Counted from the stretch's first letter, positions 26,420 through 26,548 are shown. The stretch: 39,691 nucleotides of DNA from Anaerolineae bacterium (GCA_046760425.1 JBHIEC010000002.1:1-39691), one strand, 5' to 3'. Numbers and translations: made by a program. The notes: generated by a model not told the origin, from the sequence alone.

Positions 26420-26448
26420 TTGACAACAAAGCGCCAAAGGGGTATAAT
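26420..26448 (+). promoter_or_regulatory. Perfect consensus sigma-70 promoter on the plus strand (TTGACA-17-TATAAT)
   Basis: TTGACA is at 26420-26425 and TATAAT at 26443-26448, with the 17-nt spacer ACAAAGCGCCAAAGGGG. It is divergent from the TIM-barrel gene and no plus-strand ORF follows it. Confidence 0.6.
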
Positions 26449-26454
26449 ATAAGT

Positions 26455-26548
26455 GCAAAATAAACCGCGAGGTTTTTGCCACCCAGCGAAGAGCCGCCGA
26501 CTGTGGCGGCCTGCTTGGGCTGATGCTCAAGCTAGCTGGGTGGTTTTT
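26455..26548 (+). ncRNA. Candidate small structured RNA (about 95 nt), unknown family
   Basis: The predicted TSS is near 26455. A 5' hairpin forms from GCAAAA/UUUUGC (26455-60/26474-79). The closing stem is CCACCCAGC/GCUGGGUGG (26479-87/26535-43) and encloses hairpins GCCGCC/GGCGGC (26493-98/26505-10) and GCUUG/CAAGC (26513-17/26528-32), followed by U5. The only ORFs are 6 and 17 codons and lack an RBS. Confidence 0.5.
26479..26548 (+). terminator. Intrinsic terminator of the sRNA candidate (compound stem + U5)
   Basis: A 9-bp GC-rich stem is followed by TTTTT at 26544-26548 on the plus strand. On the minus strand the same stem is followed by CAAAAACC, so it is orientation-specific. Confidence 0.55.

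What the first reader, a model, noticed from the sequence alone, without database searches (positions are those of the whole stretch)
26420..26548. Orphan plus-strand small RNA candidate: perfect promoter to intrinsic terminator, no ORF
Nearly every gene in this window is on the minus strand, yet a textbook TTGACA-17-TATAAT promoter fires rightwards here. About 95 nt later the transcript ends in a GC-rich closing stem followed by U5, and that stem works as a terminator only in this orientation. In between, the sequence folds on paper into a 5' hairpin plus a closing stem that encloses two further hairpins. No plausible ORF or RBS is present. I do not recognise SRP, 6S, tmRNA, RNase P or riboswitch core motifs. 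The 3' end lies 5 nt from the stop codon of the convergent DUF3800 gene, so it could base-pair with that gene's 3' UTR or act as an RNA partner of the cassette.
Basis: seen in the sequence. Interest (0 to 1): 0.7.

Follow-up and report, generated by a model that had tools for sequence, protein, structure and literature searches.

The report
Known DUF3800-linked small RNA gene
This is a real, separately transcribed structured RNA gene of about 94 nt from an already catalogued family (Rfam DUF3800-IX) that sits tail-to-tail with an RNase H-like nuclease gene; the family is known, but what the RNA does is still unsolved.

Summary
A 12/12 consensus promoter (26420-26448) is followed by a three-way-junction RNA whose closing stem runs into U5, 5 nt from the stop codon of a convergent DUF3800 gene.

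It is not an orphan. It matches Rfam RF02968 (DUF3800-IX RNA; Weinberg et al. 2017) at 52.6 bits against a gathering score of 36.8.

In 78 of 80 Chloroflexota loci that encode this DUF3800 subfamily, the same RNA lies on the opposite strand right after the stop codon. Structure is kept in 96% of pair cells, 24 of 29 pairs show compensatory changes, and many G-U pairs fix the strand. Near-consensus promoters are conserved in 61 of 82 copies.

New details:
- A conserved, covarying 5' hairpin lies outside the Rfam model.
- No other gene is conserved next to the pair.
- DUF3800 genes lack a recognisable promoter of their own.
- About a quarter to a third of metagenomic RNA copies have no adjacent DUF3800 gene.

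The protein models confidently as an RNase HII-like nuclease with intact acidic residues.

Most likely the RNA is the nuclease's dedicated partner or regulator, in a toxin-antitoxin-like or defence-like pair. A cis-antisense role is the main rival. The function is not shown.

Verdict: already known family, moderate interest.

The parts
26420..26425 (+). -35 hexamer TTGACA of the sRNA promoter
   Evidence: A TTGAC-like hexamer is conserved at the same place in most homologues.
26443..26448 (+). -10 hexamer TATAAT of the sRNA promoter (17-nt spacer)
   Evidence: In 61 of 82 homologous RNA genes the best promoter matches at least 10 of 12 positions, usually ending about 3 nt before the start of the RNA model.
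26455..26548 (+). Predicted sRNA transcript, about 94 nt. The start is inferred from the -10 box and the 3' end from the U-run.
   Evidence: Fold at -50.4 kcal/mol, z = -5.5. My own covariance model R1 scores 84.3 bits over 26455-26552. The ends are inferred, not measured.
26477..26549 (+). Match to Rfam RF02968, DUF3800-IX RNA (full model, positions 1-67)
   Evidence: 52.6 bits against a gathering score of 36.8; E = 1e-8 on the whole window and 1e-10 on the local region.
26462..26475 (+). 5' hairpin (AAACC-GCGA-GGUUU) after an A-rich 5' end; it lies outside the Rfam model
   Evidence: Conserved in position across homologues; its 3 core pairs all covary (helix 1). One to three extra A-U pairs stack on the core in most homologues, and 60 of 81 have a 4-nt loop. 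The AAAA run is 95-99% conserved.
26478..26487 (+). P1, 5' strand of the closing stem
   Evidence: Pairs with 26535-26544. All 10 pairs of this helix show compensatory changes across 84 sequences, and 98.4% of cells are paired.
26488..26492 (+). Junction J1/2, GAAGA (family consensus GAAAa); near-invariant unpaired purines
   Evidence: G58, A59 and A61 of alignment A4 are 96-100% conserved.
26493..26510 (+). P2 hairpin GCCGCCG-ACUG-UGGCGGC; almost invariant in sequence across the family
   Evidence: Helix 3: 1 pair never varies, 3 vary on one side only, and a U-G pair is kept in 71 of 84 sequences.
26513..26532 (+). P3 hairpin; the variable, expandable arm
   Evidence: Helices 4 and 5 covary at all 9 pairs. 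The window, L018 and L019 carry a short form. L005 carries an insertion of about 150-200 nt here.
26533..26534 (+). Junction J3/1, UA of the conserved CUAG
   Evidence: T153 and A154 of A4 are 100% conserved.
26535..26548 (+). P1 3' strand plus the U5 tail; intrinsic-terminator-like 3' end
   Evidence: At least 5 U in the 9 nt after P1 in 77 of 81 homologues.
26554..27165 (-). Convergent DUF3800 gene (203 aa), an RNase HII-like nuclease
   Evidence: Pfam PF12686, E = 1.2e-10. Invariant residues include D8, E9, D12, D88, K89, E111, D129, R161, S162, Q169 and D172. AlphaFold2 model with pLDDT 93.3. Best Foldseek matches are RNase HII/H2 structures 3p83, 1eke and 3puf, with E from 3.9e-6 to 7.0e-5 and TM about 0.6.

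Best explanation
SHOWN. The region 26455-26548(+) is a bona fide, separately promoted, non-coding RNA gene of the catalogued family DUF3800-IX (Rfam RF02968). It consists of a 5' hairpin and a three-way junction whose closing stem plus U-tract ends the transcript. Together with the convergent gene for an RNase HII-like DUF3800 nuclease it forms a compact two-gene unit of about 0.75 kb. This unit recurs in varied chromosomal contexts in Chloroflexota.

INFERRED (mechanism). The RNA is the dedicated partner of the nuclease. It is made in excess from a near-consensus constitutive promoter. It folds into a rigid junction whose invariant unpaired bases (GAAA, C, UA) and invariant P2 hairpin are read by the protein. 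By binding, it holds the nuclease in check or sets its activity, in the manner of a toxin-antitoxin or defence pair. The DUF3800 gene has no recognisable promoter of its own and is expressed at a low level by read-through. Because the two genes converge, read-through of the nuclease mRNA into the RNA gene may add a cis-antisense layer of control.
For: Identity:
- Rfam hit above the gathering score.
- Match to my own covariance model.

A real RNA on this strand:
- 96.1% of pair cells are paired and 24 of 29 pairs have compensatory changes. No shuffle out of 500 reaches the observed values, and slid-partner controls give 38-54% paired.
- Abundant U-G and G-U pairs would be mismatches on the other strand.
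- The promoter is conserved in 61 of 82 copies.
- The U-tail is conserved in 77 of 81 copies.

Linkage:
- 18 of 20 loci by Rfam and 78 of 80 by my model carry the RNA, always on the opposite strand.
- In 49 of 57 measurable pairs the end of the RNA model lies within -8 to +3 nt of the stop codon.
- No other gene is conserved in the neighbourhood.
- Paralogous copies share only the span from the ORF through the RNA.

Evidence for a protein-contact type of RNA:
- Unpaired junction bases are invariant and the P2 sequence is invariant, while P1 and P3 covary freely.
- P3 tolerates a large insertion.
- Copies without an adjacent DUF3800 gene still keep the structure (95.7% paired) and their -10 boxes, which points to action in trans.

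The nuclease looks active:
- Confident RNase HII-like model with conserved D/E residues.
- The literature places DUF3800 as a retron type VII effector and as an accessory of Cas12a2, Cas12a3 and type VI-F loci (PMC7736814, PMC10910872, PMC12669027).
- Weak PADLOC hits to DUF3800_VII and PDC-M04A.

Expression asymmetry: promoter scores upstream of DUF3800 genes are at background level.

Family-level argument: eleven unrelated structured RNA motifs associate with DUF3800 genes, and for DUF3800-I the gene lies on either side and in either orientation (PMC5737381). That fits an RNA-protein partnership better than simple antisense pairing.
Against: - There is no expression, binding or phenotype data for any DUF3800 RNA. 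The discoverers state that no specific hypothesis is obvious to them (PMC5737381).
- The strictly convergent, abutting geometry of the IX class is what a cis-antisense mechanism would predict. A pure partnership in trans does not require it.
- In 51 of 66 loci the next gene beyond the RNA is co-directional with DUF3800. Antisense transcription across the RNA gene is therefore likely.
- Some RNA copies sit tail-to-tail with unrelated genes such as DUF5615, DUF433 and Phd.
- RNA-protein docking could not be computed with these tools.
Confidence: 0.45

Rival explanations
1. Cis-antisense or transcriptional-interference regulator (type I toxin-antitoxin-like, convergent kind). The nuclease mRNA, or a longer read-through transcript, runs into the RNA gene. 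The abundant sRNA then pairs perfectly with that 3' extension. This triggers cleavage of the duplex and decay, or RNA polymerase collision, and limits DUF3800 expression. The junction fold serves stability and fast pairing rather than protein binding.
For: - The arrangement is invariably convergent, with the U-tail abutting the stop codon.
- No convincing terminator for the DUF3800 mRNA lies between the stop codon and the RNA gene. On the gene strand, only 7 of 81 loci have at least 5 U after the only candidate hairpin.
- In 51 of 66 loci the next ORF is co-directional and often starts less than 100 nt beyond the RNA's 5' end. In the window the next gene starts 8 nt from the -35 box.
- The sRNA has a strong promoter while the gene's upstream region scores at background.
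- The same tail-to-tail geometry is seen with DUF5615 and DUF433 genes.
Against: - Perfect cis complementarity needs no conserved junction nucleotides and no invariant P2 sequence.
- Copies without a linked DUF3800 gene keep the structure.
- Members of the sister class DUF3800-I lie on either side and either strand of the gene (PMC5737381).
- Type I toxins are small membrane peptides (general knowledge), not 200-aa enzymes, although nuclease toxins under sRNA control do exist (general knowledge).
Confidence: 0.28
2. Guide or specificity RNA for an RNA-directed nuclease. DUF3800 would use part of the RNA to find a complementary nucleic-acid target, as TnpB and IscB use their omega RNAs or IS110 uses its bridge RNA.
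For: - An RNase H-fold nuclease is tightly linked to a structured RNA.
- DUF3800 domains occur in CRISPR loci (PMC10910872, PMC12669027).
Against: - There is no single-stranded variable segment. Both ends are conserved (A-rich 5' end plus hairpin; P1 plus U-tail).
- The only variable part, distal P3, is a covarying helix that can take a 150-200 nt insertion.
- No matches in viral contigs, plasmids or phages that would suggest mobility or targeting.
- No terminal repeats flank the cassette in the window.
Confidence: 0.07
3. The RNA works independently of DUF3800. It could be a general regulatory or stress sRNA, or a small selfish RNA gene that settles at gene 3' ends. The linkage would then reflect co-inheritance rather than joint function.
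For: - 31 of 97 metagenomic RNA sites with enough flanking DNA lack an adjacent convergent DUF3800 gene. About 24 remain after removing second copies, divergent DUF3800 genes and decayed cassettes.
- The neighbours of these copies are varied and often toxin-antitoxin or restriction-modification genes.
Against: - 78 of 80 genes of this DUF3800 subfamily carry the RNA at a fixed position and orientation, despite 40-60% protein divergence and unrelated flanks. That is far beyond hitch-hiking.
- Whether the genomes with unlinked RNA copies encode DUF3800 elsewhere could not be checked.
Confidence: 0.12
4. Not an RNA gene at all: a chance promoter-like sequence next to a DNA palindrome or terminator of the DUF3800 gene.
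For: - The reverse strand of the window also folds well.
- There is no expression data.
Against: - 0.00 perfect promoters are expected by chance in the window, and the promoter is conserved in position across loci.
- Strand-specific G-U pairs.
- U-tail on the RNA strand only.
- Rfam hit above the curated threshold.
Confidence: 0.02

Closest known systems
Rfam RF02968, DUF3800-IX RNA (Weinberg et al. 2017, NAR 45:10811; PMC5737381)
   Same: The sequence and the three-stem core match above the gathering score. It is associated with a DUF3800 gene and is followed by a U-tract, so it is a member of the family.
   Different: Nothing essential differs.
- The window copy has the short form of P3 and GAAGAG instead of GAAAAG in the junction.
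- This analysis adds features outside the 67-position Rfam model: a covarying 5' hairpin, a conserved sigma-70-type promoter, and the fixed tail-to-tail position.
Other DUF3800-associated RNA motifs (DUF3800-I to -XI), and the drum and skipping-rope RNAs (PMC5737381)
   Same: They are structured RNAs encoded next to DUF3800 or possibly related genes. Several end in terminators, and their function is unknown.
   Different: The structures are unrelated to one another. DUF3800-I lies on either side and strand of the gene, whereas class IX is, in my sample, always convergent and abutting the stop codon.
Type III toxin-antitoxin systems (ToxIN, CptIN; general knowledge)
   Same: The working model is the same: an abundant RNA directly binds and neutralises a nuclease encoded next to it, in a compact two-gene unit.
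   Different: The type III antitoxin is an array of tandem repeats upstream on the same strand, and the toxin processes it. The toxin fold is also different. Here there is a single-copy junction RNA with no tandem repeats, it is convergent, and the protein is RNase HII-like.
Convergent type I toxin-antitoxin systems of Bacillus (txpA/RatA, bsrG/SR4; general knowledge)
   Same: A strongly expressed sRNA is convergent to a gene and overlaps its 3' region.
   Different: Those toxins are small hydrophobic peptides, and the sRNA overlaps the mRNA by design. Here the partner is a 203-aa soluble enzyme and the overlap is only inferred.
Retron type VII (reverse transcriptase plus DUF3800 effector; PMC7736814) and the TPR-DUF3800 accessory of Cas12a2, Cas12a3 and type VI-F loci (PMC10910872, PMC12669027)
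   Same: The same protein family appears as a predicted nuclease module working alongside a non-coding RNA in defence loci. There is a weak PADLOC match to DUF3800_VII.
   Different: This locus has no reverse transcriptase, no CRISPR array and no TPR domain. The retron-linked proteins lack the Q of the QxxD motif (PMC7736814), whereas this subfamily keeps Q169 and D172.

Membership tests
Rfam RF02968 DUF3800-IX RNA | Covariance-model score at or above the curated gathering score (36.8 bits), with a full-length match | tested here: met
   52.6 bits over model positions 1-67 of 67, with E = 1e-8.
Rfam RF02968 DUF3800-IX RNA | Three-stem junction supported by covariation | tested here: met
   96.1% of pair cells are paired and 24 of 29 pairs show compensatory changes across 84 sequences. 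Slid-partner controls give 38-54%. RNAalifold on 18 sequences agrees.
Rfam RF02968 DUF3800-IX RNA | Encoded next to a gene for a DUF3800-domain protein | tested here: met
   Pfam PF12686 with E = 1.2e-10 for ORF 26554-27165(-), 5 nt from the RNA's U-run. The same holds in 78 of 80 related loci.
Independent sRNA gene (own promoter and terminator) | Conserved promoter and conserved terminator on the RNA strand; a discrete transcript | tested here: inconclusive
   The promoter is conserved in 61 of 82 copies and the U-tail in 77 of 81. The transcript itself cannot be observed with these tools.
Type III toxin-antitoxin system | The antitoxin RNA is an array of tandem repeats | tested here: not met
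   No tandem repeats in 26200-27500. The junction RNA is single-copy.
Type III toxin-antitoxin system | The RNA gene lies upstream of the toxin on the same strand, separated by a terminator | tested here: not met
   The RNA is downstream and convergent in every linked locus.
Type III toxin-antitoxin system | The RNA binds and inhibits the toxin protein directly | not testable with these tools
   This needs co-purification and toxicity assays.
Type I toxin-antitoxin system | The toxin is a small hydrophobic peptide | tested here: not met
   The partner is a 203-aa globular RNase HII-like protein.
Type I toxin-antitoxin system | The antisense RNA overlaps the toxin mRNA | tested here: inconclusive
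   The geometry allows a 3' overlap, and no good terminator on the gene strand lies before the RNA gene. The ends of the mRNA are unknown.
Riboswitch or cis-regulatory leader | Located in the 5' UTR of the regulated gene on the same strand | tested here: not met
   The transcript ends in a terminator facing the 3' end of a convergent gene, and no + strand gene follows.
Guide RNAs of RNase H/RuvC-fold nucleases (omega RNA, bridge RNA) | A variable single-stranded guide segment next to a conserved scaffold | tested here: not met
   Both ends are conserved. The only variable part is the covarying P3 helix.
RNase H type 2 (RNase HII) superfamily, for the protein partner | RNase H fold with a DE pair on strand 1 plus further carboxylates | tested here: met
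   The top Foldseek matches are RNase HII/H2A structures, with E from 3.9e-6 to 7.0e-5 and TM about 0.6. D8, E9, D88, D129 and D172 are invariant. There is no sequence-level hit to PDB chains or to the Pfam RNase_HII family, so the relationship is at the level of fold only.

The most novel reading that the evidence does not exclude
The DUF3800-IX RNA is a protein-binding antitoxin or governor of an RNase HII-like toxin. This would be a new architecture of RNA-protein toxin-antitoxin or abortive-infection module: a single-copy three-way-junction RNA, convergent to its partner gene. The unlinked RNA copies would act as spare antidotes in trans. By extension, the eleven DUF3800 RNA classes would be independent inventions of the same control logic.
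Probability: 0.3. Interest if true: 0.75.

Novelty: already known. Interest (0 to 1): 0.35.

Why it matters
The RNA family was catalogued in 2017, so the finding itself adds only another member. Its value lies in giving an unsolved class a sharply defined and experimentally convenient system. The unit is about 0.75 kb and comprises a strong consensus promoter, an RNA of about 94-105 nt and a 203-aa RNase HII-like nuclease with an intact active site.

DUF3800 nucleases recur in retrons and in CRISPR loci. Learning how a dedicated structured RNA controls or equips one of them would explain eleven orphan RNA classes at once. It could also reveal a new kind of RNA-governed nuclease.

Tried and rejected
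1. Trans-antisense pairing of the RNA with the 5' region of the DUF3800 mRNA. I had noticed that P2 (GUCGCC) is complementary to possible GGC-GAC codons of the invariant AGDEAGD motif. The duplexfold median was -48.3 kcal/mol, against -47.2 for shuffled sequence and -47.5 for internal coding segments, so there is no signal. The window does not even use those codons.

2. The 5' hairpin as the intrinsic terminator of the DUF3800 mRNA on the other strand. Only 7 of 81 loci have at least 5 U in the 8 nt after it, and the median energy is -5.6 kcal/mol. This is weak.

3. A conserved third gene. All-against-all clustering of ORFs from 81 loci recovers only DUF3800 and shadow ORFs inside it. The 71-aa ORF upstream in the window (weak Rv0078B-like hit, below the Pfam cut-off) is not conserved.

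4. A mobile element with terminal repeats. No convincing direct or inverted repeats bracket the cassette in the window. Homology between paralogues stops at the ORF start and at the RNA 5' end, which selection alone can explain.

5. Presence in phages or plasmids. There were 0 viral contigs with the RNA core pattern and no tblastn match of the protein in the phage or plasmid collections.

6. Solved structures by sequence. Nothing below E = 0.79. NCBIfam gave no family.

7. Any other Rfam family, tRNA or tmRNA in the window. None found.

8. Folding energy as a test of strand. Both strands fold well, so this is uninformative.

9. The supplementary text of the 2017 paper that comments on DUF3800 motifs is not held in the library. 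Searches for follow-up work (drum, skipping-rope, PF12686) found nothing relevant.

Full report
WHAT IS THERE

The + strand carries TTGACA (26420-26425), a 17-nt spacer and TATAAT (26443-26448), a 12/12 match to the sigma-70 consensus. The window holds three such perfect sites where dinucleotide shuffles give none.

The 94 nt from 26455 to 26548 fold at -50.4 kcal/mol, z = -5.5.
- a small 5' hairpin (26462-26475);
- a 10-bp closing stem (26478-26487 with 26535-26544);
- two enclosed hairpins (26493-26510 and 26513-26532);
- a U5 run (26544-26548).

The stop codon of a 203-aa ORF on the - strand lies at 26554-26556. That ORF matches Pfam DUF3800 with E = 1.2e-10.

Three small corrections apply:
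- The simple terminator scan does not call the site, because the stem closes a multi-branch loop.
- A mechanical 34-aa ORF spans the region.
- The reverse strand folds nearly as well, so folding energy does not decide the strand.

IDENTITY

A cmscan of the whole window against Rfam 15 gives one hit above a gathering score. It is RF02968, DUF3800-IX RNA, at 26477-26549 on the + strand, with 52.6 bits against 36.8 and a full-length match to the model (repeated locally). No tRNA or tmRNA is present.

The family comes from Weinberg et al. 2017 (PMC5737381). After finding DUF3800-I, those authors searched around DUF3800 genes and described ten more unrelated motifs. They noted that several end in terminators and wrote that no specific hypothesis for their function was obvious to them. 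The RNA is therefore not an orphan in the sense of unrecognised. It is a member of a known family of unknown function.

COMPARATIVE EVIDENCE

The protein has 272 relatives in the large protein collection. The named ones come from Anaerolineae, Thermoflexales and other Chloroflexota.

A scan of one genome per species returned 80 Chloroflexota loci.
- Rfam finds DUF3800-IX in 18 of the first 20, always on the strand opposite the gene and immediately after its stop codon.
- I built a 105-position covariance model that includes the 5' hairpin. It finds the RNA in 78 of 80 loci, always convergent. Of the two exceptions, L076 is a gene cut by a contig end and L078 is a gene fragment.
- In 49 of 57 measurable pairs the end of the model lies within -8 to +3 nt of the stop codon.

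On the 84-sequence alignment:
- 96.1% of pair cells form standard pairs.
- 24 of 29 pairs show changes on both sides.
- No shuffle out of 500 reaches the observed values.
- Sliding the partners drops pairing to 38-54%.

Frequent U-G and G-U pairs fix the transcribed strand as the one opposite the gene. One U-G pair in P2 is kept in 71 sequences, and another 26 and 19 U-G pairs occur in P1.

The 5' hairpin lies outside the Rfam model. It covaries at all three core pairs and usually has one to three further A-U pairs and a 4-nt loop.

In 61 of 82 copies the best promoter matches at least 10 of 12 consensus positions, and it usually ends about 3 nt before the model start. A subgroup has a TG-extended -10 box about 25 nt further upstream, followed by an extra hairpin. 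By contrast, the 150 nt upstream of the DUF3800 genes score no better than random windows.

The U-rich tail is kept in 77 of 81 copies.

On coding potential, 22 of 81 homologues have stops in all three sense frames, and 38 of 81 RNA lengths are not a multiple of 3.

In the nearest relatives (about 92% nucleotide identity, same gene context) the RNA and promoter differ at 7 of 133 positions. None of these changes breaks a pair, and one turns G-C into the family's usual G-U.

ANATOMY OF CONSERVATION

The consensus is nnnnnAAAAgcc....ggcuunUCCngccncGCGAAAaGUcGCCnanUGUGGCgGCCuGCcccc...GcUAGCgngGcgGGUUnnuuU.
- P1 and P3 vary freely through compensation.
- P3 is expandable. The window has a short form, and one Caldilinea locus carries an insertion of 150-200 nt.
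- The unpaired junction bases (GAAA, C, UA) and the whole P2 hairpin are close to invariant.

This pattern is typical of an RNA that a protein or a tertiary contact reads at the junction. There is no variable single-stranded segment that could serve as a guide.

THE PROTEIN

The subfamily alignment has invariant D8, E9, D12, D88, K89, E111, D129, R161, S162, Q169 and D172. These include the N-terminal DE motif and the C-terminal QxxD motif that define the family (PMC7736814).

AlphaFold2 gives a confident model, with pLDDT 93.3 and pTM 0.90. Its best matches among solved structures are archaeal RNase HII and human and mouse RNase H2A, with E from 3.9e-6 to 7.4e-4 and TM about 0.6. No relationship is visible at the sequence level to PDB chains or to the Pfam RNase_HII family.

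This agrees with published statements that DUF3800 has an RNase H fold and occurs as a retron type VII module and as an accessory of Cas12a2, Cas12a3 and type VI-F loci. PADLOC gives weak hits to DUF3800_VII and to a candidate defence gene, PDC-M04A.

CONTEXT

Clustering all ORFs of 81 loci recovers only DUF3800 itself. Paralogues in the same assembled genome share only the span from the ORF start to the RNA 5' end, about 730-760 bp. Several genomes carry two or three cassettes.

In 51 of 66 loci the next long ORF beyond the RNA gene is co-directional with DUF3800 and often starts within 100 nt. In the window the next gene's start codon is 8 nt from the -35 box. The RNA gene is therefore an antisense island in a co-directional gene array, and transcription across it from the other strand is plausible.

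Neither the RNA core pattern nor the protein is found in the viral, phage or plasmid collections.

THE REVERSE TEST

I scanned metagenome contigs for the conserved RNA core alone, which returned 120 loci. Of 97 sites with room for a gene downstream, 66 have a convergent DUF3800 gene and 31 do not. Among the 31:
- some are second RNA copies about 0.7 kb from a DUF3800-plus-RNA cassette;
- some sit beside divergent DUF3800 genes further away;
- one is a decayed cassette;
- about 24 appear unlinked.

These copies keep the fold (95.7% paired, 21 of 29 pairs compensated) and their -10 boxes. Several lie tail-to-tail with other small toxin-antitoxin-type genes, namely a DUF433-DUF5615 pair, a HicB-DUF433 fusion and Phd. 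Whether the host genomes encode DUF3800 elsewhere cannot be told from short contigs.

MECHANISM

What is shown:
- a conserved RNA gene with its own promoter and terminator;
- near-obligate linkage to an apparently active RNase HII-like nuclease;
- no third component.

What is inferred: I favour a dedicated RNA-protein partnership in which the abundant RNA binds the nuclease and restrains or equips it, giving a toxin-antitoxin-like or defence-like pair (confidence about 0.45). The reasons are:
- the junction-centred conservation;
- the persistence of unlinked copies;
- the asymmetry in promoter strength;
- the defence-related company the protein family keeps;
- the fact that eleven unrelated structures serve DUF3800 genes, class I in any orientation (PMC5737381).

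The main rival (about 0.28) is cis-antisense control or transcriptional interference. The invariant convergent abutting geometry, the absence of a good terminator on the gene strand and the co-directional downstream genes support it. The two models are not exclusive.

A guide-RNA role (0.07), a function independent of DUF3800 (0.12) and a non-gene artefact (0.02) are less likely.

VERDICT

Novelty: already known. Interest is moderate (0.35). The function of DUF3800 RNAs is a genuine open question, and this class offers a compact test system, but the window itself contributes only one more member.

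Noticed in passing
window 24120-24148 (-) and 9134-9162 (-): Two further perfect TTGACA-N17-TATAAT promoters. The one at 24120-24148 has a TG-extended -10 box and lies about 260 nt upstream of an ABC-transporter solute-binding gene (22339-23856, - strand), which leaves a long leader. No Rfam match was found in that leader.
   Followed up: partly
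window 25026-25467 (-): An IS200/RAYT-like Y1 transposase is split into two overlapping ORFs, 25159-25467 and 25026-25331. This is probably a frameshifted pseudogene. It lies 1.1 kb from the sRNA gene.
   Followed up: partly
L201 1990-2751 and L202 714-1475 (closest relatives of the window locus): The DUF3800 stop codon is lost (TAG to CGG, plus a 2-nt deletion). The called protein (P0001, 253 aa) therefore runs on in antisense through the whole RNA gene. The RNA and its promoter stay intact.
   Followed up: partly
L005 4620-4880 (Caldilinea aerophila MAG): The RNA gene carries an insertion of about 150-200 nt inside arm P3, made of several short REP-like palindromes. The core and the promoter are kept. 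The Rfam gathering-score scan found no match in this locus, and my model scores it weakly (26 bits).
   Followed up: partly
L123 93-786; also L098, L157 and L189: An RNA copy without DUF3800 lies tail-to-tail with a DUF5615 gene that is preceded by a DUF433 gene, a presumed toxin-antitoxin pair. The geometry is the same as with DUF3800.
   Followed up: partly
L087 28-2358; also L178, L188 and L200: The gene order is integrase, then DUF3800, then a divergent RNA copy on the opposite strand, then a HicB-DUF433 fusion gene, then a second RNA copy on the opposite strand. That makes two successive gene-plus-convergent-RNA modules in what looks like an island.
   Followed up: partly
L006, L013 and L019 (one MAG); L014, L071 and L077 (another MAG): Several assembled genomes hold two or three DUF3800-plus-RNA cassettes in different contexts. 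Paralogues are about 85% identical over the cassette only.
   Followed up: partly
window 27206-27421 (-) and 27619-27954 (-): A 71-aa ORF lies 41 nt upstream of DUF3800. It has a weak Rv0078B-like antitoxin hit below the Pfam cut-off and is not conserved in other loci. A PII-like cyclic-di-AMP receptor gene lies further upstream.
   Followed up: partly
L020 1-576 and L076 1452-2027: The two loci share 576 nt at 100% identity, although one contig is assigned to an Anaerolineales MAG and the other to a Geobacter MAG. This is probably a binning artefact.
   Followed up: no
window 26471-26486 and 26542-26557: A 16-nt direct repeat at 81% identity (GGTTTTTGCCACCCAG and GGTTTTTGACGCCTAG). In this copy both the 5' hairpin and the closing stem are followed by GGUUUUUG, so the 5' hairpin also looks like a small terminator or pause site on the RNA strand.
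   Followed up: no
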